Sequence record: EU863408
Origin: Escherichia phage JSE
Strand: one strand, 5' to 3'
Length of the DNA: 64,000 bases
Made by a program: the position numbers and the translations under genes. Shown here one piece after another: positions 44,762-62,596 of this stretch (the first letter of the stretch is position 1; every line of letters begins with the position of its first letter). Under the pieces are notes generated by a model that ran no database searches, was not told the DNA's origin, and saw only the letters and a list, made by a program, of their open reading frames with translations.

Positions 44762-45985
44762 TTATACTGCCATTTGAGCGGTGATCGCTGGATGGCTTTG
44801 ATAGTTGTGAATTTTAAAATCTTTCGGAGTCTTTGTCAATACCTCATCTAAAGATTTAAATTCCGGCAACTCAATTATTGGTTTATCAAACGGAACACGG
44901 CTTAACTGTTCCATAACTTGATCAAAATGGTTTTTGTAAATGTGGCAATCCCCACACTGATAAACCAGTTCGCCAACTTCTAATCCGCAAATCTTCGCGA
45001 TGATATGCGTTAACAGTGCATAGCTCGCTACGTTGAACGGATTCCCTAAAAAGAGATCATTCGAACGCATGAAAAATAAACAACTCAATTTGTTGTCGTT
45101 GGAAACATAAAACTGTACCATCGGATGACATACACCTAACACAGCATTATGCGTTTCCTGTACGTTCCATGAATCAATGATAATACGACGACTATATGGA
45201 TCATTCTTGATCATGTCAATAACTTTTTGTAACTGGTCTTCCCAAATCTTCGGGCGATAGACATATTCTTCATCGTCTTTAGTGCTTGATGTGTCTACGT
45301 CCATACTAACAAACATCGTGGTATCCGGTGCTATAATATCCCCACCCAGATAATCACTATCAAGCAGATAACCGAAATAACCATCATCTACCCATTCCTG
45401 GAATCCCCACAAGCAATATGCATCATTAACAAAATTAGATTGAGTCTTCCAGTGGTCTGCTACCAGAATATAATCAAACTCTTCATAACGCATACCACGC
45501 CAGATAGCACATAAACGGTCTTCTGTTTCATTGGTTGGTGTAAAGTCTTCTACCCACGGGTGCTTAAATGTATGTGTATATTTGCTCTTAACGCGCTTAA
45601 TTTTGATTTCACCGTGTGGATGAATCGGTTTTCGTCGCCATGCCATACCATACATATTACCGACATTATAACCATTGAATCGCAAGGGATTCTTTTCTTT
45701 CATATCAAGACAGTTGCCGCGCCAAATATCAAAGGCTTCCTCGTCAAACTTGCCGCGTGTAATTTCCTGTAAGCGACGGCGGTCAAGTGATCCCTCCATA
45801 AACCATAGCAATTCGCCAATTACAGAGGCTGTAGCCATCTTTTTAGTGGTCAGTAAGGGGAAACCCTTGCTTAAATCAATTCGCATTTCTGCACCGAATT
45901 TAGAGAGCGTACCTACCCCAGTTCGGTCTTCACGAGGCCAGCCATTATCAAGAACATCACGCAATAGTTTCAAATATTCTTTCAT
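44762..45985 (-). CDS. td: thymidylate synthase with roughly 120 aa internal insertion
   Basis: ThyA motifs (RTGVGT, VCHPMVQFYV, DPYSRRIII); 407 aa versus about 264-290 aa for typical ThyA/Td. Confidence 0.85.
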   Translation of the reverse strand: MKEYLKLLRDVLDNGWPREDRTGVGTLSKFGAEMRIDLSKGFPLLTTKKMATASVIGELLWFMEGSLDRRRLQEITRGKFDEEAFDIWRGNCLDMKEKNPLRFNGYNVGNMYGMAWRRKPIHPHGEIKIKRVKSKYTHTFKHPWVEDFTPTNETEDRLCAIWRGMRYEEFDYILVADHWKTQSNFVNDAYCLWGFQEWVDDGYFGYLLDSDYLGGDIIAPDTTMFVSMDVDTSSTKDDEEYVYRPKIWEDQLQKVIDMIKNDPYSRRIIIDSWNVQETHNAVLGVCHPMVQFYVSNDNKLSCLFFMRSNDLFLGNPFNVASYALLTHIIAKICGLEVGELVYQCGDCHIYKNHFDQVMEQLSRVPFDKPIIELPEFKSLDEVLTKTPKDFKIHNYQSHPAITAQMAV

Positions 45986-51394: not shown

Positions 51395-51402
51395 TATAAA
51401 TA
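51395..51402 (+). promoter_or_regulatory. T4-type late promoter TATAAATA upstream of gene 34
   Basis: Exact TATAAATA about 29 nt before ATG 51431. Confidence 0.55.
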
Positions 51403-51430: not shown

Positions 51431-54400
51431 ATGGCAGATTTTTCTCAACATTTCAAGGCCACATTTGGCTTTGACGCTGGTAATGAAAAGGTCGTCAATG
51501 TAGCATACGCAGATAAAAACACATCAACGGATGCGGTCAACGTTGAATTTTTCAATTACCATAATGGTATTACTCAGTATGACACAACTCGCGGTTATGA
51601 TCAATACGGAACTACAATCTATCAAAACCGTCCGTATTATGCAAAAGAAGATATCACAAAGCCAGCAGGTGATTTTGACCCGACTAAATGGCAAGCACTG
51701 CGCACGGACCCACGTTGGGATTATATTGCAGCAACTTCCAGTGATACTCCTTTAAAGTCTGGTGATTATATCGCAGCAGATGGTCAATTTGCAAACTTGA
51801 CTTTCTCTATGCCAACTAAACCAGCAGAGGGAGACACTATAACAGTAAAAGATATCGGTGGCAAGTGTGGTGTTAACGAATTATCGTTCTTGAGTTCAGG
51901 ACATGAGTTTTACCATAACGGTAATGTGTATAACCGAAAATGGTATTGCACTACCCCGTATGCAATGAACTATTTCATCTTTGTTCGGAATCGTTGGCAT
52001 GTTTATCAGACGGGAACAGAGCCGCGCGGTGTATACGCACAGCCAGCGATTGATGCTATTCAAATGCAGAATGGTGATCAGGTATTTCGTCGTAGTTCGT
52101 TGGGTAATATTACCTTAGTGCTTCCTAAGTTTGCCAACAATGGCGACATGATCCAGACTACAGACCTTGACGGATTAACCGCAACCAACCACGTTACGGT
52201 TAAAGTTCATGAGCACGCAGAAGAACAATCAATTGGCACGTCCGGTCTAAAAGAGATTATCGGTAAGCGTAGCGGTCATGGTGTATTCATCTTTGACAAG
52301 ACGGAAAACTTATGGCGTTTGTGGGATGGTGATCAGTCTGTTCGTCTTAAACCGATCATCGATGACACTCGCTTGCAACCTAATAGCTATGTTGCTGTAT
52401 TTGGTGGTCGTGATGTTACTCTGACGCTGCCGACCAATGTCGAGCCGGGTGATCGTATTCAAGTTTCTATGCAGTATATGCAAGGAAACCAGAATTGCCG
52501 TATTATCACCGCCACAGAGGATACAAAAATCCTTATGCAGAAAAACATGGTTCAGTTTCCTAAGCGTAGCGAGTACCCATTCAATGGGACTGATACATGG
52601 ACTGGAGTGTCTGAATTGTCTTTCAACGCTGCAAATGATTATGTACCTTATCTGGAGTTCTCTTATTCAGAAGGTGATGATGGTAAGAAATACTGGTTGG
52701 TGGCACATGCTCACCCGATTGTAGAACGAGTAGATCCGACTCGTAAAGATCGTGTTGGTGTAATTGCACTGGCTACCCAAACTGAAACGAATAAAAACCA
52801 TGAAGAGAATCCTAGCGACGAAGTTGCAGTAACACCAAAAATGCTGGCTAATAAAACCGCCAACGAAACTCGACGCGGTATTGCTCGCATTGCGACTCAA
52901 GCGGAAACGCATCAAGATACTGGTTCCAACTTCCTGGATGATGTTATCGTTACGCCTAAAAAGTTAAATGACTGTGTTGCTACCGAAGCCCGTCGTGGTG
53001 TGATGGAAATTGCAACCCAGCACGAAACCAATGAAGGTTTAGACGATACCCGCGCTATTACTCCTAAGAAATTAGAAGAACGTCGCGCTTCCGAAGATCT
53101 CGCTGGTATTGCTGAAATTGTTCAGGCTGGCGGCAGTGCTGCCGCTCGACGTGGCGAAGCTGGTACAGGGATCTATAACATCAATGACCATGCTAAAATT
53201 GTTACGCCAAAAAACATCAACGAAGTCAAGGCGACCGAAACTTCCCGTGGTGTTGGCTATCTGGCAACTGACGCGGAAGTGCAAGGGGCTACAGAATCAA
53301 CCCCGCAAGATGCTTTACTCATCACGACTCGCACGCTAACGAAACGTACTGCTACCGAATCGCGCACTGGTATCGCTGAAATTGCAACTCAGGAAGAAAC
53401 AAACTTAGGTCAAAGTGATAACCATATCATCACGCCTAAAAAGTTGCATACTCGCCGCGCAACGGAAACTTTACACGGTTTAGCAGAAATTGCAACTCAG
53501 CCGGAATTTGACGCAGGTCTTGACGATGCTCGCATTTCTACCCCATTGAAGATTAAAACCTTCTTTGAGAATGCACAGCGTTTGAAAGTCGATCCGACTC
53601 AGGGGCTTAACCTTACTGGTGATTTGTGGCAAGGTATCACGATTCGCGGTTTGGATGCAACCGAAGATACAAAAGGTGTCGCTAAAGTTGCTACTACTCA
53701 GCTTACGGATGCTGGTCAAGATGATACTACAATCATCACGCCTAAAAAGCTGCAAGGCAAAAAGGCCACCGAAGGTAAAGAAGGTATTATCCGAGTTGGT
53801 ACTCAAGCCGAAACCGTGGCTGGTGCACTGGCTAATGTAGCAATTTCTCCGAAGAACTTCAAATATGTTGTTCAGACAGAGGATACATGGAAAGCAACCG
53901 AAGCGCGTCGTGGTTTCTTGAAAGTTGCTACTCAGGAAAACTGTTTTGTTGGTGATAATCTGCAAGGTTCTACTCAAGAACTAGGAAACTACCAGCATGA
54001 CGGAATTGCTGTTACCCCTAAAGGATTAAACTACGCACTTGCTAATTTCTTACCTAAGATGGCAACCGCTCAGAATAGTTTGAAATTGGGTAACGTAGAG
54101 GCCGCTAAATGGGCGCGTAGAGACATTGACCAGACCATAGAGAGCAATTACACGTTTAATAAAAACGTTAACGTGAAGGGCGATTTAGAGTGCTTAAAAT
54201 CAGGTTCCTTTGAAACTCTGTCTGTGACTAAGAACTCAACCGACGATCCGAGTAATGGTCATCTGGTGTTGGGTGAGCGTGGAGTTGACGGTCACACCGG
54301 AATTACTCTGCATGGCACAACCGCATCGGAAGGCATGAAAAACTCGTGGTCTATTATCGTTGGTGGTACTGGAACAGCGCAAGTTGTTGATAGTGATGCT

Positions 54401-55171
54401 ATCGCTTTCGGTAAAATCAATGATGGTGGAGTCGTCGAGCATTACGCCTTTGCTATGGAACACAATGGCGACGCGACAGCATATAGAGACTTTATTGCAG
54501 GTCGTAACCTGTATGCGAAACAAGGCGGTTTATACATTGTTGACCAGTCTAATCCGGCAATGACTCGTTCCCCAGATGGTATGCTGAATATCGGTCACGG
54601 TGGAAGTGTTAACATCAAGGCAGGTCATCAAACGTTAACTACAGAGATCGCCGGACAGAAATATCAGATCGTACACGCAGGAAACGCTGATGAAGTTCTT
54701 AACCGTCAGTTTGTTAAGAATGCTGGCGATACAATGGTCGGTAAGCTGACTATGGATAATGCGCCTATTGTTTCTGTTAAGCATGAAGCTAGCGCGGCAA
54801 CCGCTCCGGCAATCAGCAACATCGGTTTCTGGAATATGCGCGTTACTACCCAGAACATCAAAGAAACTTATCCAGAGAAGAAAAACGGTACTCTGATGCA
54901 ATGGGGTACTGACGCGGACGGGCTTACCCAGCTTTGGTCCCCAGATGGTACTCATAAACATTATATCCGTTCCGGTACTGGTGGTCAATGGACCGCATGG
55001 GGTGAAATTTACACCAAACAGAATAAGCCTACCGCTCAGGAAATCGGGGCAGTAGTTGCAGAAGGTGGTTTAATGAACTCTATGACGGTGCGTGACTGGA
55101 TCAAAGTTGGTAATGTTAAAATCATCGCCAATAATCTGACTCGTACCGTAGACTTTATCTGGGAAGACTAA
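51431..55171 (+). CDS. 34: long tail fibre proximal subunit gp34
   Basis: 1246 aa; repeated ATE.R.G.AEIATQ-type motifs; TATAAATA at 51395-51402. Confidence 0.9.
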   Translation: MADFSQHFKATFGFDAGNEKVVNVAYADKNTSTDAVNVEFFNYHNGITQYDTTRGYDQYGTTIYQNRPYYAKEDITKPAGDFDPTKWQALRTDPRWDYIAATSSDTPLKSGDYIAADGQFANLTFSMPTKPAEGDTITVKDIGGKCGVNELSFLSSGHEFYHNGNVYNRKWYCTTPYAMNYFIFVRNRWHVYQTGTEPRGVYAQPAIDAIQMQNGDQVFRRSSLGNITLVLPKFANNGDMIQTTDLDGLTATNHVTVKVHEHAEEQSIGTSGLKEIIGKRSGHGVFIFDKTENLWRLWDGDQSVRLKPIIDDTRLQPNSYVAVFGGRDVTLTLPTNVEPGDRIQVSMQYMQGNQNCRIITATEDTKILMQKNMVQFPKRSEYPFNGTDTWTGVSELSFNAANDYVPYLEFSYSEGDDGKKYWLVAHAHPIVERVDPTRKDRVGVIALATQTETNKNHEENPSDEVAVTPKMLANKTANETRRGIARIATQAETHQDTGSNFLDDVIVTPKKLNDCVATEARRGVMEIATQHETNEGLDDTRAITPKKLEERRASEDLAGIAEIVQAGGSAAARRGEAGTGIYNINDHAKIVTPKNINEVKATETSRGVGYLATDAEVQGATESTPQDALLITTRTLTKRTATESRTGIAEIATQEETNLGQSDNHIITPKKLHTRRATETLHGLAEIATQPEFDAGLDDARISTPLKIKTFFENAQRLKVDPTQGLNLTGDLWQGITIRGLDATEDTKGVAKVATTQLTDAGQDDTTIITPKKLQGKKATEGKEGIIRVGTQAETVAGALANVAISPKNFKYVVQTEDTWKATEARRGFLKVATQENCFVGDNLQGSTQELGNYQHDGIAVTPKGLNYALANFLPKMATAQNSLKLGNVEAAKWARRDIDQTIESNYTFNKNVNVKGDLECLKSGSFETLSVTKNSTDDPSNGHLVLGERGVDGHTGITLHGTTASEGMKNSWSIIVGGTGTAQVVDSDAIAFGKINDGGVVEHYAFAMEHNGDATAYRDFIAGRNLYAKQGGLYIVDQSNPAMTRSPDGMLNIGHGGSVNIKAGHQTLTTEIAGQKYQIVHAGNADEVLNRQFVKNAGDTMVGKLTMDNAPIVSVKHEASAATAPAISNIGFWNMRVTTQNIKETYPEKKNGTLMQWGTDADGLTQLWSPDGTHKHYIRSGTGGQWTAWGEIYTKQNKPTAQEIGAVVAEGGLMNSMTVRDWIKVGNVKIIANNLTRTVDFIWED

Positions 55172-55204: not shown

Positions 55205-56344
55205 ATGACACAAGATATAGAATTACGCAACACTGGAATTAGGTTTGCGCATTTCGACGAAGACTCTGCGACATTTACCAGCATTTCAGAAAATAACTCT
55301 GTGATGTATAAGCTGGAAGTGCGCGGATCTAATGCGGATTCGACCAAACCAGCAAGGATTAGATTTAATGGAGTGGAGATCGTTGGCACTGGCTATGAAA
55401 ATGGCCTAAATTTTAAAGTTCTTACTCCAACTGGACAACTACACGAAGAAAAGGTATTCTATGGTCGCGGTGCTGTTTTGGCAATGCGTGATTATCTTTA
55501 TTTGCTGAAAGGTGACTATATCATTGCGATGGCAACACATGGAGAATTGTTTGCAGATCCGATAAGTGATGATATATTTTCTAAGCTGGGATCTGTATCA
55601 TTCCCGAATCACATTTTGTTACAGCAAATGCCTCGTGTATCCTATGCAGCAATTTATTCTACTAAAATGGGTAAAATTGTGTGCGAAGGGATGCAAGCAA
55701 CGCACGGAGAAGGTCAAGATTCGTCTATACAAATTGAGAAAGTTTATGATACTATAGACGATCTTGCAATAACAGGAACACCACAACGATTTTTAGATTA
55801 TCCGGTTGAATATGTTAGCGAAGATGCCGAACATTTCGAGCTAATACAATGGCCTCATGATGAGATCAGCGCACCACTTGAATATTTTAACATAAAGGCA
55901 GGTGACAAACTATCAATATCCTTTGAATTGTTCCGTGATAGTGCCGCAGCCGCAGCCAACGTAACAGCGCGTTTCTATCACAACTACTTCACTGATGGAC
56001 AATATCAAACTGGCGTTCGTTATAATACCAGCCAGAAGGATCAATGGGAAAAGTTTGAAGCCGTCTATACCGTACCGGAAGGAGTTGATAGTGTTACCAC
56101 TGGTTGTATCAGATATCCAACCAACTCAAATGAAGGTATTGTTAAAATTAGAAACATACTAATAACGCCGATCAGCGGAGTCGTCAAAACTACTGGTCCG
56201 ACTTCATTTGGTGTTAATGGTGTTAGAACAACTCATATTCAGGATAACGGTGATTTTACTAACCCTGTAATGAGTCTTCTTAAACTGCCTAGAGATAATA
56301 AACACATCACATCCAACAACTTTAAAGAGTTCGATGTTGATTAA
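55205..56344 (+). CDS. 35: long tail fibre hinge connector gp35
   Basis: 379 aa, position between 34 and 36. Confidence 0.85.
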   Translation: MTQDIELRNTGIRFAHFDEDSATFTSISENNSVMYKLEVRGSNADSTKPARIRFNGVEIVGTGYENGLNFKVLTPTGQLHEEKVFYGRGAVLAMRDYLYLLKGDYIIAMATHGELFADPISDDIFSKLGSVSFPNHILLQQMPRVSYAAIYSTKMGKIVCEGMQATHGEGQDSSIQIEKVYDTIDDLAITGTPQRFLDYPVEYVSEDAEHFELIQWPHDEISAPLEYFNIKAGDKLSISFELFRDSAAAAANVTARFYHNYFTDGQYQTGVRYNTSQKDQWEKFEAVYTVPEGVDSVTTGCIRYPTNSNEGIVKIRNILITPISGVVKTTGPTSFGVNGVRTTHIQDNGDFTNPVMSLLKLPRDNKHITSNNFKEFDVD

Positions 56345-56505: not shown

Positions 56506-56513
56506 TATAAATA
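56506..56513 (+). promoter_or_regulatory. T4-type late promoter TATAAATA upstream of gene 36
   Basis: Exact TATAAATA about 34 nt before ATG 56547. Confidence 0.55.
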
Positions 56514-56546: not shown

Positions 56547-58037
56547 ATGGCAGATTTGAAACATGGATCTACTGTAGGCGGATCTCCCATTTGGACGCAA
56601 GGAAACTTGACGATCCAGCCAGCGGGGGATCAGCTTTTCTACAAAGGTCATAAAATCTATACCGCTTTTGATAAACCTTCGGCTGCCGATTTTGATGCTG
56701 TTAGTGCTAAAGACGGTGGCACATTTCAAAAGCAGGTCCATTTTGAGGAAGGTTTAAGCGTAGGTAGCGCATCGGCTGGAGAAACCAAAAAGAACGGGAT
56801 CTTTAAAGGAAATAGTGATGCGGCTAACTTTGATGGTGTAAGTTGGGGTTTGCATTCGTGGAAATCTATTGGTTTTGTTAATGCCCGTGATGGCGTTATC
56901 ATGGCTTATATTGACACTACCACAGGTGATTTTAAAACTAAAGGGACTATCGAAGGGACAACCATTAAAGACACAGGTCAACGCGTCTATAGCCCTGTTA
57001 ATAAACCAACGAATAATGATTTAGATTTGGTGTCTCGTCGCGGTGATACCCTCACAGGAACATATAATTTAAACACTGTCACTGTTAAACTATCGGTTGA
57101 TTCGAAATTAATTGCAAGGGAACGTGATTTAATTAATTTTGATGCGACTAAGATCTATTATGGTAACGTTCTTGATACGTTGGTCTTCCGAAGTAAAGAT
57201 GAGCCTACCATTTTTGTTAATGGCAGAGAAGGTCGTTTTTATCACACCAACAATAAACCAACTAAAGCCGATGTTGGGCTAGGCAATGTCACCAATGATG
57301 CACAGGTTAAACGTGCTGGTGATATTATGGAAGGTAACTTGCAAGCGCCTAGAATGTTGGCGACAAACGATCCGGCTGGTCCTAATGAATTGGTTCGTTT
57401 GAGCTACTTTGAGAGAAAATCAATGGTAGCAAATCCAACCATCATTGGAAACGTTGATTGGAACACTCTTATTAATCGCGGTATCTATCGTGTGGAAAAT
57501 GCTGGGTCAGGTACTAATAAACCGTCTGATAGCTATTATAACGGCGTTTTGATGGTATATCGCCCAGAAGATGCGGTCGGTACTCGTCGAATTGTTCAGG
57601 TGTATTATCCTGAATCTATTGACCATCCGATGTGCTGGCGTTCGTGTTCTAATGAATCATGGACTGCATGGAACTATGTAGATCACCGTAAATTAGCCGA
57701 TATTCGCTATGTTAACGTAACTGGCGATACCATGACAGGACCGTTAACTGTTCCGGCTGCAAACGGTGTTAGAACAGCTAGAGGTGCATATAATGGTGAT
57801 AACTACTATGCTGGGTTAAATAGTGCCGATGGCACGGCTATGATTCACCGTATCAGCGATATTAAAGCCACTGAAAAATTGGGTATTACACATGATTCGA
57901 AAGCTGTTTTCGTTAAATCGCGTGGAAATACTCAAGCCACAGACCGCTATGAACTTTACCACGAAGGGCATAAACCTACCCCTGCCGAAGTTGGCGCGGT
58001 TCCACTTAATGCGGTGATTGATTTTGGTACTTTCTAA
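56547..58037 (+). CDS. 36: long tail fibre distal-half proximal subunit gp36 (enlarged)
   Basis: N-terminus MADLKHGSTVGGSPIWTQGN ... PAGD..FYK matches T4 gp36; 496 aa versus 221 aa in T4; TATAAATA at 56506-56513. Confidence 0.8.
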   Translation: MADLKHGSTVGGSPIWTQGNLTIQPAGDQLFYKGHKIYTAFDKPSAADFDAVSAKDGGTFQKQVHFEEGLSVGSASAGETKKNGIFKGNSDAANFDGVSWGLHSWKSIGFVNARDGVIMAYIDTTTGDFKTKGTIEGTTIKDTGQRVYSPVNKPTNNDLDLVSRRGDTLTGTYNLNTVTVKLSVDSKLIARERDLINFDATKIYYGNVLDTLVFRSKDEPTIFVNGREGRFYHTNNKPTKADVGLGNVTNDAQVKRAGDIMEGNLQAPRMLATNDPAGPNELVRLSYFERKSMVANPTIIGNVDWNTLINRGIYRVENAGSGTNKPSDSYYNGVLMVYRPEDAVGTRRIVQVYYPESIDHPMCWRSCSNESWTAWNYVDHRKLADIRYVNVTGDTMTGPLTVPAANGVRTARGAYNGDNYYAGLNSADGTAMIHRISDIKATEKLGITHDSKAVFVKSRGNTQATDRYELYHEGHKPTPAEVGAVPLNAVIDFGTF

Positions 58038-58041
58038 TTTT

Positions 58042-58066
58042 AGCGGGGATTATCTCCCCGCTTTTC
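58042..58066 (+). terminator. terminator after gene 36
   Basis: AGCGGGGA-TTAT-CTCCCCGCT then TTTT. Confidence 0.6.
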
Positions 58067-58107
58067 TAAATAATATTATTCTAATAACCGTTTAAGGATT
58101 TTATAAA

Positions 58108-61017
58108 ATGGCAGATTTAAACAGAATCCAATTTAAACGTACTAGCACGAAAGGTCGTAAACCTGATGCTACTACAATGACGCAAGGTGAACTTGCTATC
58201 AACCTGCATGATTATTATTTGTTTACAAAAAATGACTCTGGTTCTATTATTAACTTAAGCTGTCCTCCGATCTATGACCGCGATGTTATCATGGCTGGTA
58301 AAGTAAAGGGAGATTATTACATTTTAGGTAAAACCGCCAATTATCTTGAAGATCAGACAGCGAGAGACCTTAACCGTTTTGGAGCATTCCGTACCAACGG
58401 TCTAGATGGATTTTTAGATTTGACCTTGCATGTTCCTCATTCTGCTGGCGTTCAACATGGTCGAGGATTTACTTTCCGTTATGCGACTGGCGGATCTCGT
58501 GTTGAAACATATGGGTATAATGCACAGGGACAAAAAGCATTTAGCTATAAAATGTATCATGAAGGTGATAAACCAACTCCAGGAGAACTGAACGTTTATA
58601 GCAAACAAGAAGTAGATAGAATGTTTGTTAAAAACGTTAAACTTTCTACAGGTTCTGGTGATATCGTTGACGGTTATTTTAAATTAGCGACTGCGATGAT
58701 TCCACAAGACGGTCGTAGTGTATTTTTCCGTATTCATGGTGGTAACGGATATAACATTACTGCATACGATCAAGTTGATATTGTAGAAATTGTTATTCGC
58801 AGTGGAAATAATCGTCCTAAAGGTGTTAACGTTATTGCATACCGCCGAAATACAAACAAAGCATTTGATGTTTTGGCTGTTAATACTTCTGGTGATAACT
58901 ATGATATCTACGTGAAATATCAGCGTTACACTGATAACGTTATTGTTGAATTTGGTAAAAGTGTTGATGTTAATCTGGTAGTCCATGACGTTCCAGACTT
59001 TGTTGTTGATCGTCCTGTTGGCGATAATGTTATTGGCGGTCGCGCGGTAACTCTTTTCAACACCGAAAACAAACGAGGTGTGTTGAGTTTTGACGACAAT
59101 ACACAAAACAGCTATGATATTGTTCACATGAGTAATGATAAAGGTACTGGACGAAAATATATTCGTAAATTCCGTAGTAACTATAATGAAATGATCTGGC
59201 ATGAGACGGTTCAAGGTAACGTATATCGTTTAGCTACTGGAACTACCGACGCAAACGAAGTTCTCAAAATTACCGACCGCACGTTGCAAACTGGCAATGC
59301 TGTTTTTGACGGTGGTAATAATAATGTTCGTTTACATCGTAAAACCGGAAAAAGTAACTATCTGGAATATTATGATGCCCGTGACGGAGCAAATAAACGT
59401 CAGGGATATATTGGGTATGGCGATGCCACAACTAACCAGTTGTCAATTATTAACGAACTCTCCGAAGGTAATAACTCGATTTTCTTTAACGAGACAGGTC
59501 AAATTTCACTTAACGTAGGAAAGACAAAAATTGTTCATAGCAACGGACAATATATTTCTACCAACGCCGATAACTATCGTATAATTTATGGTAATTATGG
59601 AACATTCTGGCGAAATGATAGCGTTAAACTTTATCTCATGTCCACTGCCGAAAATGATAAATGGGGTACTTGGAATAGCTATCGACCATTCATTTACAAC
59701 CTAACCAGCGGCGATGTTCAATTGGGTGGTGATGGTAACGAATCGGCATTAACGTTAGAATGTGCTTCTCGTGCCGCTCGCTTTAGTAATGACGTTTACA
59801 TTAAGAAAGGGCTTTTGACTTTCGACGCTGGGCGATTAGGATCTCGCGATTATATTAGATTTAATCATTGGGGCGATAGCAATAACGGTCGCGATAACAT
59901 CCTACAGATTGAAGACAGTCAGGGCGCACATTTTACCACTGAACGTGCTATGGGTACTGGTAACATAACAGCACGTTTTAAAGGCTTTGTTCGTGTTGAG
60001 TCTGGTGAGATTGCATTTGATGCTAATCGGGGGTCGCAGTCTCAATTTACCTTACACACATGGGGTAACGAGCAACGCAAACAGGTTTTTGAATGTAAGG
60101 ATGCTACAAGTTATCACTGGTATACTGAACGTACTCAGGGTGGCACTGGACCTATTCTGTTCGTTATGGCGGGTAGTCTAAACGTTGGTAGCAATATCAC
60201 AACAACTGGTCCGGATATTACGTTTAAACGCGCTGGCAATAAGCACATCTGGTTTAGAGATCCAAACGGCTTAGAGTTAGGCTTGATGTACTGCGATGAT
60301 GCTGGTGCTATTCGCTTCCGTGGTCAGAAACAAGCCCAGGCGTGGAAATTTGCAGATAAAATGATCCAGTTGGAATCTGGCACTGTATCCGGTGGCGGTA
60401 ATGGCCTGATTCGTGGTGAAGTTGCTGGCGGTAGTTGGGCTAGCTGGCGTGACCGTGCTGCTGGCCTTATGGTTGGGTGTCCTCAATCAACCAATTCCGC
60501 TCATAACATCTGGAAAGCTACTCATTGGGGTCAATATCACATTGCAGCAATGGGTGTACATGTTCCTAACGGTACTATCGGTGATGCTATAGCTCGCCTA
60601 AACGTTCATGACGCCAACTTTGACTTTAGCGCCTCCGGTGACATGTCGGCAGGGCGTAACGGTTCGTTTAACGATGTTTATATTCGTTCTGATGCTCGCC
60701 TTAAAATCAATAAGGAAGAGTATAAGGAGAATGCCACTGATAAAGTTAATCGCTTGACTGTGTACACCTACGATAAGGTTAAATCTTTAACTGACCGTAG
60801 TGTTATCGCCCATGAAGTTGGTATTATTGCTCAGGATCTTGAGAAAGAATTGCCGGAAGCAGTAACAACTTCTAAGGTCGGCGACCCAGATAAACCAGAA
60901 GAGATCTTAACAATTTCTAACTCTGCTGTCAACGCTCTTTTAATTAAGGCGTTTCAGGAAATGAGCGAAGAATTGAAAGCCGTTAAAGCTGAACTAGCGG
61001 AACTTAAAAAGAATTAA
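58108..61017 (+). CDS. 37: long tail fibre distal subunit gp37 with C-terminal intramolecular chaperone (peptidase S74-like) domain
   Basis: N-terminus MADLNRIQFKRTS ... GELAINL matches T4 gp37; C-terminus SDARLK...GIIAQDLEKELPEAV...coiled coil matches the endosialidase-type chaperone domain. Confidence 0.85.
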   Translation: MADLNRIQFKRTSTKGRKPDATTMTQGELAINLHDYYLFTKNDSGSIINLSCPPIYDRDVIMAGKVKGDYYILGKTANYLEDQTARDLNRFGAFRTNGLDGFLDLTLHVPHSAGVQHGRGFTFRYATGGSRVETYGYNAQGQKAFSYKMYHEGDKPTPGELNVYSKQEVDRMFVKNVKLSTGSGDIVDGYFKLATAMIPQDGRSVFFRIHGGNGYNITAYDQVDIVEIVIRSGNNRPKGVNVIAYRRNTNKAFDVLAVNTSGDNYDIYVKYQRYTDNVIVEFGKSVDVNLVVHDVPDFVVDRPVGDNVIGGRAVTLFNTENKRGVLSFDDNTQNSYDIVHMSNDKGTGRKYIRKFRSNYNEMIWHETVQGNVYRLATGTTDANEVLKITDRTLQTGNAVFDGGNNNVRLHRKTGKSNYLEYYDARDGANKRQGYIGYGDATTNQLSIINELSEGNNSIFFNETGQISLNVGKTKIVHSNGQYISTNADNYRIIYGNYGTFWRNDSVKLYLMSTAENDKWGTWNSYRPFIYNLTSGDVQLGGDGNESALTLECASRAARFSNDVYIKKGLLTFDAGRLGSRDYIRFNHWGDSNNGRDNILQIEDSQGAHFTTERAMGTGNITARFKGFVRVESGEIAFDANRGSQSQFTLHTWGNEQRKQVFECKDATSYHWYTERTQGGTGPILFVMAGSLNVGSNITTTGPDITFKRAGNKHIWFRDPNGLELGLMYCDDAGAIRFRGQKQAQAWKFADKMIQLESGTVSGGGNGLIRGEVAGGSWASWRDRAAGLMVGCPQSTNSAHNIWKATHWGQYHIAAMGVHVPNGTIGDAIARLNVHDANFDFSASGDMSAGRNGSFNDVYIRSDARLKINKEEYKENATDKVNRLTVYTYDKVKSLTDRSVIAHEVGIIAQDLEKELPEAVTTSKVGDPDKPEEILTISNSAVNALLIKAFQEMSEELKAVKAELAELKKN

Positions 61018-61057
61018 GGAAACTCCCAGGGAAGGGAACTACTAAGGAGAAACGGCT

Positions 61058-61297
61058 ATGGTCTATAATATCGTCATTGGTGCTTTGTCTAATTTCGGAA
61101 TGAAATTATTGTCAAAGTTAATTAGTGAAAAGATGCTCACTAAAATTTTCTTCTATTGCGCTCGTCGTCTTGCGGCTTATACCAATACGCCAATTGATGA
61201 TCGTTTTGTGGAAGAACTTTATAAGGAGTTTAATAAAGATCAGTCAGAAGATAGTAACGAGCAAGATAAACCTAGTGATAGTCAACTACCTAAATAA
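61058..61297 (+). CDS. hypothetical small protein in the gp38 slot
   Basis: 79 aa; strong AAGGAGA site; amphipathic N-terminus, acidic tail; no similarity to gp38 recognised. Confidence 0.4.
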   Translation: MVYNIVIGALSNFGMKLLSKLISEKMLTKIFFYCARRLAAYTNTPIDDRFVEELYKEFNKDQSEDSNEQDKPSDSQLPK

Positions 61298-61330
61298 GAG
61301 TACACTGTCATAGTTATCTTAGGGCATTAT

Positions 61331-61987
61331 ATGCAAGTTTCTGAAAAAGGGAAAGACTTTGCTATCTCAAATGTCCTGCGCGCTATTTTCACAACTAAAA
61401 GCACGGAGTTGCTCGTACTTCGTGTTTTTGCTGCCGTCGTGTTGTCCATATTGGCATTTGTCGTTTATAGTAAAAACGAGTTATTTGCGCTTTATAAAGA
61501 GACTCGTTATGAGACTTATGCTCACATTCTCCAGGTAGAGAAAGACCGCAATTTTGATAATGCAGCACAGGAGCAGTTACAGATAGTTCATGTATCGGCT
61601 GATGCCGATTTTTCTGCTGTTTTTAGTTTTCGTCCGAAAAACCTAAACTATTTTGTTGATTTGGTGGCATATGAAGGAAAGCTACCGCATACAATCGATG
61701 AAAAGAATTTAGGCGGATTCCCTATCAATAAAACGAGTGAAGAATATCGTAGGCATCTTTTAGGTAAATCATATTTTACCGATAAAGATTTCCAGTATAT
61801 TCCATCAAGAGAAAAGAAATTAGAGAGTATCGATATAGGGGTTATGTATTCTTGTCCTATATTCAATCTCGACAATGTCTATTCTGGTAGTATCTCCATT
61901 GCATGGAAGAATAAACCGGATATTGACATTGAGAATTTAGATACTCTTTGCAATCAATCTGCCAGAATCCTCGGAAGGATTAGATAA
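61331..61987 (+). CDS. t: holin
   Basis: 218 aa; colinear with T4 holin T (LEQLQIVH.S.EADFSAV.SFRPKNLNYFVD..AYEGKLP, ARILGR). Confidence 0.9.
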   Translation: MQVSEKGKDFAISNVLRAIFTTKSTELLVLRVFAAVVLSILAFVVYSKNELFALYKETRYETYAHILQVEKDRNFDNAAQEQLQIVHVSADADFSAVFSFRPKNLNYFVDLVAYEGKLPHTIDEKNLGGFPINKTSEEYRRHLLGKSYFTDKDFQYIPSREKKLESIDIGVMYSCPIFNLDNVYSGSISIAWKNKPDIDIENLDTLCNQSARILGRIR

Positions 61988-61993
61988 CTTAAA

Positions 61994-62024
61994 GGGGAAG
62001 CCTTTAGGCCTCCCCTTCTTTTTA
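61994..62024 (+). terminator. terminator after holin t, possibly bidirectional
   Basis: GGGGAAGCC-TTTA-GGCCTCCCC then TTCTTTTTAT. Confidence 0.6.
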
Positions 62025-62270
62025 TTGGCGCATAGAAGCCCCTGAATCACATTTTGACGCTGTATGATGAAAACAGGTAGCGTACCAGTCATCGGCTTGT
62101 TTGTCTTCGTCAGAAAACGCGTAATTGCGTTGTATACCGTTTTCTACTTTGACCAGTGCAATAGCTGTTTCTGGAAGATCAATCAATCGGACAAAATCAC
62201 CATCTTCCCACTCTACACGAGCAATATCATAGCCCATCTCAAAGTATACAATCGCTTGTTCTAATTTCAT
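62022..62270 (-). CDS. hypothetical protein
   Basis: 82 aa ORF; no similarity to T4 AsiA recognised. Confidence 0.4.
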   Translation of the reverse strand: MKLEQAIVYFEMGYDIARVEWEDGDFVRLIDLPETAIALVKVENGIQRNYAFSDEDKQADDWYATCFHHTASKCDSGASMRQ

Positions 62271-62596
62271 TCTGGAAACTTCCCGTAAACATTCTCTGCC
62301 AACTTACGTGCATCTTTTACAATATCTTTCATGTAATGACTATAATTTTTAGCTAGATCAATGATGCAATCAACAAAGAAGTAATAGCGTCGCAGTGCTA
62401 CCAGCTCAACATCTTCAAGATGACCATTTTCTCCAATCGCTGAAATGTGTTTAAATTCCTTTCGGATCGCGTCCATCGCTACATTAACTTCTTTTATAAT
62501 ATCTTTCGTATTATATGCACCTCGACTAATCAAAATTTTGGTTAGGTCTTCTGCTTTTTCTTGAAAGTTGTCAATTTCAAACTCGATCATAATCAC
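62267..62596 (-). CDS. hypothetical protein (paralog of 62705..63037)
   Basis: Shared C-terminal ...AENVYGKF / ...TENIFGKF. Confidence 0.45.
   Translation of the reverse strand: MIMIEFEIDNFQEKAEDLTKILISRGAYNTKDIIKEVNVAMDAIRKEFKHISAIGENGHLEDVELVALRRYYFFVDCIIDLAKNYSHYMKDIVKDARKLAENVYGKFPE

What the first reader, a model, noticed from the sequence alone, without database searches (positions are those of the whole stretch)
60688..61297. gp37 tail fibre ends in a self-cleaving chaperone-like domain and gp38 is absent
The last roughly 110 aa of gp37 (SDARLKINKEE ... VGIIAQDLEKELPEAV ... AVKAELAELKKN) match the peptidase-S74 intramolecular chaperone domain of endosialidases and T5-type fibres. No gp38 adhesin/chaperone homolog follows; instead there is an unrelated 79 aa ORF (61058..61297) before holin t. 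This implies gp38-independent fibre trimerisation with autoproteolytic release, and puts the receptor-binding tip just upstream of about residue 860.
Basis: partly seen in the sequence, partly recalled or inferred. Interest (0 to 1): 0.5.

Follow-up and report, generated by a model that had tools for sequence, protein, structure and literature searches.

The report
RB49-type tail fibre, adhesin gene elsewhere
The tail-fibre protein of this RB49-like coliphage does end in a self-cleaving folding domain, but the "missing" gp38 adhesin is almost certainly encoded elsewhere in the genome, as published for this phage group, so the finding is ordinary.

Summary
The window comes from a Krischvirus, an RB49/Phi1-like T4-type coliphage. 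gp37 (58108-61017, 969 aa) ends in a 109-aa peptidase-S74 intramolecular chaperone domain with an invariant Ser861/Lys866 and an IMC-like predicted fold. It is followed by a 79-aa ORF and holin t, and the 64-kb window contains no gp38.

The inference "gp38 is absent, so the gp37 tip binds the receptor" is not supported. Every Krischvirus genome I examined has one T2/S16-type g38. It lies either about 107 kb upstream (about 58 kb downstream) of g37, as in RB49, Phi1, TB34, SAP, Brandy and MIZ6, or directly after g37, as in phiS. The distant site lies outside this window. Both arrangements are published, and RB49 host-range mutations map to gp38. The segment before the cleavage site is the most conserved part of gp37, as expected for a gp38 docking platform rather than a variable receptor tip. 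Of 29 related loci, 26 have a Gp38_N-bearing ORF just downstream of the fibre gene.

The 79-aa ORF (RB49 "Dc5") coexists with g38 in phiS, so it does not replace g38. Its function is unknown. Verdict: already known, low interest.

The parts
56506..56513 (+). T4-type late promoter motif TATAAATA upstream of g36. It is the last such motif before the end of t, so g36-g37-ORF79-t reads as one late transcription unit.
   Evidence: The only + strand matches in this area are at 51395 (before g34) and 56506 (before g36). The motif count in the whole window is not above chance, so this is a positional argument only.
58108..61017 (+). Gene 37, long tail fibre distal subunit precursor (969 aa).
   Evidence: phrog_1699, E 6e-189. 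The C-terminal 480 aa are 79% identical to RB49 gp37.
59479..59697 (+). Internal Gp34_trimer-like domain (aa 458-530) within the gp37 shaft.
   Evidence: PF21446 E 6.1e-23. PDB 4uxe (T4 gp34) E 1.1e-11 and 5yvq (Mu gpS).
60208..60687 (+). Distal end of mature gp37 (aa 701-860). Inferred to be the docking platform for the N-terminal domain of gp38, not a variable receptor tip.
   Evidence: It is 86% identical to RB49. Together with the adjoining IMC, aa 721-920 is the most conserved stretch of gp37 among 17 homologs, at 0.76-0.82 against 0.30-0.68 elsewhere. The docking role is inferred from S16 (PMC6851490; PMC7917993).
60688..61014 (+). Intramolecular chaperone / peptidase S74 domain (aa 861-969). 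The predicted scissile bond is R860^S861.
   Evidence: PF13884 E 1.1e-11. PDB 6f45_A (S16 gp37) E 1.2e-4 with SDxRxK aligned. AF2 model and Foldseek: 7dc3 E 3e-5, 3gw6, 3gud.
60688..60705 (+). SDARLK motif: Ser861 (60688-60690, predicted nucleophile) and Lys866 (60703-60705, predicted general base).
   Evidence: Both residues are invariant in 31 aligned homologs. The motif DVYIR^SDARLKI matches the cleavage motif reported for S16 and fPS gp37 (PMC7917993).
60919..61011 (+). Long C-terminal helix of the IMC (aa 938-968). It is expected to form the trimeric coiled coil that nucleates trimerisation.
   Evidence: AF2 helix at model residues 159-189, pLDDT about 90. The coiled-coil role is inferred from the endoNF IMC structure.
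61058..61297 (+). 79-aa ORF (RB49 'Dc5', phrog_402, precomputed PF26925). It is a small protein with a hydrophobic N-terminal helix, the conserved motif T-x-T-P-I-D-D-x-F and an acidic tail. Function unknown. It is not a gp38 substitute.
   Evidence: It coexists with g38 in phiS and L033.
61331..61987 (+). Holin t.
   Evidence: PF11031 E 1.6e-60. phrog_860 E 9e-88.
61994..62026 (.). GC-rich hairpin followed by a T-run between the convergent genes t and the minus-strand ORF at 62022-62270. Probable terminator of the late unit.
   Evidence: Read by eye (GGGGAAGCC-TTTA-GGCCTCCCC, then TTCTTTTTATT, one mismatch in the stem). The consensus scan did not report it.

Best explanation
This is the ordinary distal long-tail-fibre module of an RB49-like (Krischvirus) phage. 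gp37 is made as a 969-aa precursor. Its last 109 aa form an S74 intramolecular chaperone that drives trimerisation of the beta-helical tip and then removes itself by Ser861/Lys866-mediated cleavage of the R860-S861 bond. The newly exposed end of mature gp37 (860 aa) is capped by one copy of a T2/S16-type gp38 adhesin, which is the actual receptor-binding protein (OmpA or O antigen in RB49-type phages). In this lineage g38 is not next to g37. It sits in a hyperplastic early-gene region about 107 kb upstream (about 58 kb downstream) of g37, outside the window. The 79-aa ORF between g37 and t is a conserved backbone gene unrelated to gp38. Shown here: the domain identity, the dyad, the fold, the absence of g38 from the window, and the presence of g38 in all relatives examined. 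Inferred: cleavage, gp38 capping, and the presence of g38 in this particular genome.
For: Identity of the window: 98% nt identity to Krischvirus genomes, and the g37-t segment is 84-93% identical to SAP, TB34, RB49, Phi1 and ECD7. IMC domain: PF13884 E 1.1e-11; S861 and K866 invariant in 31 homologs; AF2 mean pLDDT 79, with top Foldseek hits to the MyRF ICA domain 7dc3 (E 3e-5, prob 1.0), the endosialidase IMC 3gw6 and the GA-1 IMC 3gud; sequence hit to S16 gp37 6f45_A; cleavage motif identical to that described for T2-like gp37 (PMC7917993). g38 elsewhere: Phi1 gene 38 at 44989-45765, annotated as adhesin, with PF05268 E 1.8e-70 and Gp38_N E 3.9e-18. tblastn finds it at a distant site in SAP, TB34, RB49, ECD7, Whisky, Cognac, the Makalu phages, GEC-3S and others, and in Brandy and MIZ6. 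There is a reciprocal pattern: phiS has g37-g38-ORF79-t and no g38 at the displaced site. Literature: RB49 g38 is displaced and a small ORF sits in its place (PMC3157838); RB49 gp37 carries a self-cleaving chaperone, then a gp38 monomer attaches, and host-range mutations E230K/Y231S lie in gp38 (PMC9569957); both Krischvirus arrangements are noted (PMC12032242). The tip is 86% (aa 701-860) and the IMC 98% identical to RB49. aa 721-920 is the most conserved part of gp37. 26 of 29 IMG/VR loci with this tip encode a Gp38_N-bearing ORF within about 750 nt downstream.
Against: The rest of this phage's genome is not available. Its exact gp37 is not on record and no database genome is identical, so g38 in this genome is inferred from relatives rather than seen. 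The mature tip (aa 661-860) has no detectable sequence match to the S16 gp37 tip or to any PDB chain, so the S16-like docking geometry rests on the shared Gp38_N partner and on published statements, not on a test made here. Autoproteolysis has not been shown for any Krischvirus gp37 in the papers I read. No canonical late promoter lies directly upstream of the displaced g38 in Phi1, so how it is expressed late is unclear.
Confidence: 0.9

Rival explanations
1. One reading: this phage has no gp38 at all. After IMC release, the gp37 tip just upstream of residue 860 binds the receptor directly, as in the T5 L-shaped fibre.
For: No g38 of either type is present in the 64-kb window. IMC-bearing fibres without a separate adhesin do exist (T5 pb1, endosialidases; established knowledge, and PMC11990801).
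Against: Every Krischvirus genome examined has exactly one g38, at one of two sites. The window has the RB49-type arrangement, whose g38 lies about 52 kb beyond the window end. The pre-cleavage segment is the most conserved part of gp37, not a hypervariable tip, and is 86% identical to RB49, whose specificity maps to gp38. 26 of 29 related fibres have a Gp38_N partner.
Confidence: 0.03
2. The 79-aa ORF has taken over the role of gp38, as adhesin or as fibre chaperone, at the canonical position.
For: It occupies the position of g38 between g37 and t. Homologs in Ounavirinae also follow tail-fibre genes.
Against: In phiS and L033 it coexists with g38 in the order g37-g38-ORF79-t. It is 100% identical in phiS although the phiS gp37 is only 46% identical, so it does not co-vary with the receptor-binding module. 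It has no Gp38_N or GP38 match and no relation to T4 gp38 (hhalign probability 0.5%). Homologs follow fibres without an IMC (Mordin, T7 gp17-type C-terminal domain) and occur away from any fibre gene in a Vibrio phage.
Confidence: 0.03
3. The S74-like domain is degenerate and is retained in the virion, acting as a non-cleaving C-terminal knob.
For: Cleavage has not been demonstrated for this protein.
Against: Ser861 and Lys866 and the surrounding NDVYIRSDxRLK motif are invariant across 31 homologs. The motif is the one at the mapped S16 cleavage site. The domain is 98% identical to that of RB49, and the literature describes the RB49 domain as self-cleaving.
Confidence: 0.04

Closest known systems
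RB49 / Phi1 (Krischvirus) long tail fibre: gp37 with C-terminal self-cleaving chaperone plus displaced g38 adhesin (Desplats 2002; Trojet 2011 PMC3157838; Efimov 2022 PMC9569957)
   Same: Same gene order g34-g35-g36-g37-small ORF-t. The IMC is 98% and the pre-cleavage tip 86% identical to RB49. The small ORF is 97.5-100% identical.
   Different: The middle of gp37 (aa 484-700) is only 64% identical to RB49, which is ordinary modular variation. The g38 of this particular genome was not seen.
Salmonella phage S16 / T2 / T6-type tip: (gp37)3-gp38 complex, PDB 6F45 (Dunne 2018)
   Same: A C-terminal IMC of about 110 aa with the S-D-x-R-x-K cleavage motif (PMC7917993). The partner adhesin in relatives has the same Gp38_N and GP38 Pfam domains.
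   Different: In S16, T2 and T6, g38 directly follows g37. Here it does not. The mature tip upstream of the IMC shows no detectable sequence similarity to S16.
Endosialidase (K1F endoNF), T5 pb1 and GA-1 gp12 intramolecular chaperone domains (peptidase S74); eukaryotic MyRF ICA domain
   Same: The Pfam family, the Ser-Lys dyad, the position at the extreme C-terminus of a trimeric fibre, and the predicted fold.
   Different: In those proteins the mature tip itself binds or degrades the receptor. Here, by homology, the exposed tip is capped by a separate monomeric adhesin.
T4 gp37/gp38 (lambda Tfa-type chaperone, receptor-binding needle domain)
   Same: The N-terminal 78 aa of gp37 (45% identity) and the overall locus order.
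   Different: There is no T4-type gp38 in the window (best E 0.58) and no similarity to the T4 gp37 C-terminal needle.

Membership tests
Peptidase S74 / intramolecular chaperone (IMC, CIMCD) domain | Match to PF13884 above the gathering score | tested here: met
   45.2 bits against a cut-off of 22, E 1.1e-11, model positions 1-58 of 58, gp37 aa 861-920.
Peptidase S74 / intramolecular chaperone (IMC, CIMCD) domain | Ser-Lys catalytic dyad in an S-[DE]-x-x-x-K motif at the N-terminal boundary of the domain | tested here: met
   S861 and K866 (SDARLK) are invariant in 31 homologs and align with SDRRIK of S16 gp37.
Peptidase S74 / intramolecular chaperone (IMC, CIMCD) domain | Located at the extreme C-terminus of a trimeric fibre or spike protein | tested here: met
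   It forms the last 109 of the 969 aa of the long tail fibre distal subunit.
Peptidase S74 / intramolecular chaperone (IMC, CIMCD) domain | IMC fold: beta 'tentacle' region followed by a long C-terminal helix | tested here: met
   In the AF2 model the IMC part has pLDDT 82-95. Foldseek against the PDB gives 7dc3 MyRF ICA (E 3e-5, TM 0.72 on the target), 3gw6 and 3gud (prob 0.9-1.0). The model is a monomer of a domain that functions as a trimer.
Peptidase S74 / intramolecular chaperone (IMC, CIMCD) domain | Autoproteolytic release after trimerisation | not testable with these tools
   This needs virion proteomics or expression of wild-type and S861A protein.
T2/T6/S16-type long tail fibre tip (gp37 trimer capped by gp38 adhesin) | gp37 precursor with a cleavable IMC | tested here: met
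T2/T6/S16-type long tail fibre tip (gp37 trimer capped by gp38 adhesin) | A gp38 adhesin gene (PF21721 Gp38_N + PF05268 GP38) in the same genome | not testable with these tools
   Absent from the 64-kb window, and the rest of this genome is unavailable. Present in all relatives examined, either displaced or adjacent.
T2/T6/S16-type long tail fibre tip (gp37 trimer capped by gp38 adhesin) | Mature gp37 end homologous to the S16 gp38-docking (interdigitated) domain | tested here: inconclusive
   phmmer of aa 661-860 against the PDB gives no hit at E<=10. However, the segment is 86% identical to RB49, which uses a Gp38_N adhesin, and published work notes that this segment diverges even among gp38-using phages.
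T4-type fibre (gp37 needle + gp38 Tfa-like chaperone) | A T4 gp38 homolog, and T4-like C-terminal gp37 needle and head domains | tested here: not met
   tblastn of T4 gp38 gives a best E of 0.58. T4 gp37 matches only at aa 1-78.

The most novel reading that the evidence does not exclude
This particular Krischvirus has lost g38 altogether. After IMC release it uses the conserved gp37 end (aa about 700-860) as its receptor-binding tip, which would make it a gp38-less derivative of a T2-type fibre. The evidence does not strictly exclude this, because about 100 kb of the genome lies outside the window.
Probability: 0.03. Interest if true: 0.5.

Novelty: already known. Interest (0 to 1): 0.1.

Why it matters
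The practical value is in annotation. In RB49-like phages the host-range determinant (g38) is not in the tail-fibre operon, so receptor prediction or fibre engineering based on the g34-g37 locus alone would target the wrong protein. Nothing here changes current understanding of tail-fibre assembly. The IMC-then-gp38-capping pathway and the displaced g38 of RB49 have been described since 2002-2022. The only open item is the function of the conserved 79-aa ORF next to the holin.

Tried and rejected
1. Full-length gp37 against PDB sequences found only the internal gp34-like domain. The IMC hit to 6f45 appeared only when the last 119 aa were searched alone.
2. The mature tip (aa 661-860) against the PDB gave no hit at E<=10, so S16-like docking geometry could not be shown by sequence.
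3. NCBIfam gave nothing for gp37, ORF79 or Phi1 gp38.
4. An exact-sequence look-up of gp37, made to find the source genome, found it not on record. No database genome is identical; the best is 98.3%.
5. ORF79 compared with T4 gp38: a 19-aa tblastn patch (E 1.2) was followed up with hhalign, which gave probability 0.5%. Rejected.
6. PF26925, the precomputed family of the ORF79 homologs, is not in the local Pfam copy and is not mentioned in any searchable paper.
7. The sigma-70 promoter and terminator scans of 57900-62400 were not above the shuffled expectation.
8. The idea that ORF79 is always next to a holin was rejected as a general rule. It holds in Krischvirus and Ounavirinae but not in a Vibrio podovirus-like phage or a Grimontviridae phage. 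The Ounavirinae neighbour annotated as 'holin' looks more like a transmembrane plus coiled-coil, Rz-like protein.
Full report
**What is in the sequence.** The 3' end of the window carries a T4-type long-tail-fibre operon:
- g34: 51431-55171
- g35: 55205-56344
- g36: 56547-58037
- g37: 58108-61017 (969 aa)
- a 79-aa ORF: 61058-61297
- holin t: 61331-61987

These are followed by convergent minus-strand genes. Base 60688 starts the Ser861 codon of SDARLK, and the quoted peptides are all present. Pfam places PF13884 (Peptidase_S74, "chaperone of endosialidase") on gp37 aa 861-920 with E 1.1e-11 and 45 bits against a cut-off of 22. It places the T holin family on the last gene with E 1.6e-60.

**Origin of the window.** The window is a Krischvirus, that is, an RB49/Phi1-like phage. 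Its first 20 kb are 98% identical to phiS, Sf20, the MIZ phages, KFS-EC and others. The g37-t segment is 84-93% identical over most of its length to vB_Eco_SAP, TB34, RB49, ECD7 and Phi1. No database record is identical, and the exact gp37 sequence is not on record in the assembly index.

**The chaperone domain is real.**
- The last 119 aa hit the S16 gp37 construct of PDB 6F45 (E 1.2e-4), with SDARLK aligned to SDRRIK.
- In an alignment with 30 database homologs, S861, D862, L865 and K866 are invariant, as is the preceding D-V-x-I.
- An AlphaFold2 model of aa 780-969 has mean pLDDT 79, and 82-95 over the IMC. It shows beta hairpins followed by a 31-residue C-terminal helix.
- The best PDB matches to this model are the MyRF ICA domain (7dc3, E 3e-5, probability 1.0), the endosialidase IMC (3gw6) and the GA-1 IMC (3gud).
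- Salem et al. (PMC7917993) report that in S16 the last 113 residues are autocleaved at DLNVS^SDRRIKK, and that T2-like phages have DVYIR^SDGRLKI. The window has DVYIR^SDARLKI.

The predicted scissile bond is therefore R860^S861, which leaves a mature gp37 of 860 aa. This is an inference from homology.

**gp38 is absent from the window but not from the lineage.** tblastn with Phi1 gp38 finds nothing in the window at E<=10. T4 gp38 gives nothing better than E 0.58. Two papers address the RB49 group directly:
- Trojet et al. [quoted passage not shown]
- Efimov et al. [quoted passage not shown] They also isolated host-range mutants with E230K and Y231S in gp38.

I verified the displacement in the genomes:
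- Phi1 gene 38 lies at 44989-45765 on the minus strand, about 107 kb from g37. It matches PF05268 GP38 (E 1.8e-70) and PF21721 Gp38_N (E 3.9e-18).
- tblastn finds it at a distant site in SAP, TB34, RB49, ECD7, Whisky, Cognac, the Makalu phages, GEC-3S, JK32 and others.
- The listed relatives missing from that top-60 table were Brandy and MIZ2, MIZ3 and MIZ6. I inspected Brandy and MIZ6 directly, and both carry it at the same site, at 78% and 76% identity.
- In TB34 coordinates g38 lies about 58 kb downstream of the g37 start, which is about 52 kb beyond the right end of the window.

**A reciprocal pattern supports an obligatory g38.** phiS is the best backbone match of the window. It has the order g37-g38-ORF79-t and lacks g38 at the displaced site. 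The IMG/VR contig L033 has the same order. Both arrangements have been noted in print for Krischvirus isolates (PMC12032242). I saw one g38 per genome, at one of two sites, and never zero.

**Is the segment before residue 860 a receptor-binding tip?**
- Across 17 gp37 homologs (one Krischvirus and 16 fibres on short, apparently prophage-derived contigs), aa 721-920 is the most conserved stretch. Its identity to the window is 0.76-0.82, against 0.30-0.68 for aa 1-80, 401-480 and 601-720.
- Against RB49, aa 701-860 is 86% identical and the IMC 98%, while aa 484-700 is 64%.
- Of 29 IMG/VR loci that encode this C-terminal module, 26 have an ORF beginning with a Gp38_N domain within about 750 nt downstream. 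These ORFs have differing C-terminal domains (phrog_1121 "tail fiber adhesin").
- The three exceptions are two Krischvirus loci of the RB49 arrangement (L006, L028) and one locus with three tandem novel small ORFs (L024).

This is the signature of a conserved docking platform with an exchangeable adhesin. It is not the signature of a hypervariable tip.

One caveat applies. The mature tip has no detectable sequence similarity to the S16 gp37 tip or to any PDB chain. The S16-like geometry is therefore inferred from the shared partner domain rather than shown here.

**The 79-aa ORF.**
- It is RB49 "Dc5" / RB49p252. It matches phrog_402, of unknown function (E 5e-20), and its homologs carry the precomputed family PF26925.
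- It is 100% identical in phiS although the phiS gp37 is only 46% identical, and it coexists there with g38. It is therefore a backbone gene, neither a g38 replacement nor tied to the receptor-binding module.
- Homologs at 32-47% identity occur in Ounavirinae between the last tail-fibre or adhesin gene and a transmembrane plus coiled-coil protein. That protein is annotated as holin in Mordin and has weak Rz-like PHROG hits. Homologs also occur in other contexts in a Vibrio phage and a Grimontviridae phage.
- The family has a hydrophobic N-terminal helix (Kyte-Doolittle 1.3-2.0 over 19 aa), an invariant FF, and a T-x-T-(P)-x-D-D-x-F motif.
- No T4 late-promoter motif lies between 56506 and the end of t, so the ORF is probably co-transcribed with g36, g37 and t.
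- My best guess, at low confidence (about 0.2), is a small membrane-associated protein with a lysis-related or envelope role. hhalign rejects any relation to T4 gp38.

**Verdict.** The domain assignment and the cleavage mechanism are supported and match published descriptions. The claim that gp38 is absent, and the resulting placement of the receptor-binding site on gp37, are not supported: they follow from seeing only 64 kb of a genome of about 165 kb in a lineage already known to have moved g38. This is already known, and interest is low.

Noticed in passing
window 61058-61297; L002 4992-5186; L004 3492-3701; L025 4858-5082; L038 3320-3559: The 79-aa ORF family (phrog_402 / PF26925, RB49 'Dc5') sits immediately upstream of a lysis-type gene at the end of the late tail-fibre operon in two unrelated myovirus lineages. 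In Krischvirus it precedes holin t. In Ounavirinae it precedes a transmembrane plus coiled-coil protein annotated as holin, with weak Rz-like hits. It stays 100% identical when the g37/g38 module is swapped (phiS). It may be a small membrane protein with a lysis or envelope role.
   Followed up: partly
L024 4356-5262: One prophage-like locus has a gp37-type fibre with IMC (54% identical tip) but no Gp38_N ORF. Instead it has three tandem paralogous ORFs of about 100 aa (M-x-x-W..., FDIPNGW, GGG, 24-38% identical to the first of them) with no Pfam or PHROG match. They could be a three-subunit alternative to the monomeric gp38 cap, one subunit per gp37 pocket. This is speculative.
   Followed up: partly
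P0023 (303 aa, E. coli contig of 25.7 kb): A protein that combines Gp38_N and the first half of GP38 with a C-terminal S74 IMC domain, that is, an adhesin::IMC chimera (PF21721 E 3e-19, PF05268 E 1.6e-46, PF13884 E 7e-15). It could be a real recombinant or a gene-call or assembly artefact.
   Followed up: no
L007-L023 (IMG/VR contigs of 8-45 kb, many with isolate-genome-style UViG ids): Fibres of about 1150-1200 aa share aa 71-967 of this gp37 at 58-77% identity. They sit next to a major-tail-protein-like ORF, a 168-aa Gp38_N adhesin and apparent tape-measure chaperone genes. Almost the whole Krischvirus distal fibre is therefore shared with what look like temperate phages of enterobacteria.
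   Followed up: partly
window 59479-59697 (gp37 aa 458-530): The middle of gp37 contains a domain matching the C-terminal trimerisation domain of T4 gp34 (PF21446 E 6e-23; PDB 4uxe, 5nxf) and Mu tail fibre gpS (5yvq). This is a shaft module shared between the proximal and distal half-fibres.
   Followed up: no
window 56547-58037: gp36 is 496 aa here, against 221 aa in T4. Only aa 57-153 match the Pfam gp36 model, marginally (E 6e-6, 26.7 bits against a cut-off of 26).
   Followed up: no
L001 44900-45900 (Phi1 displaced g38): The displaced g38 is bracketed by hairpin plus T-run elements, and the downstream one is followed by a TTGACA-17-TATAAT early promoter, which is PeSL-like. No TATAAATA late promoter lies within about 120 nt upstream of g38. 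How a virion protein gene inside an early-gene block on the other strand is expressed late is not obvious.
   Followed up: no
window 55205-56344: The ORF at the gp35 position (379 aa) has only a weak, sub-threshold match to the ILEI domain (E 5e-4, 20.9 bits against a cut-off of 27). No gp35 family was detected in Pfam.
   Followed up: no
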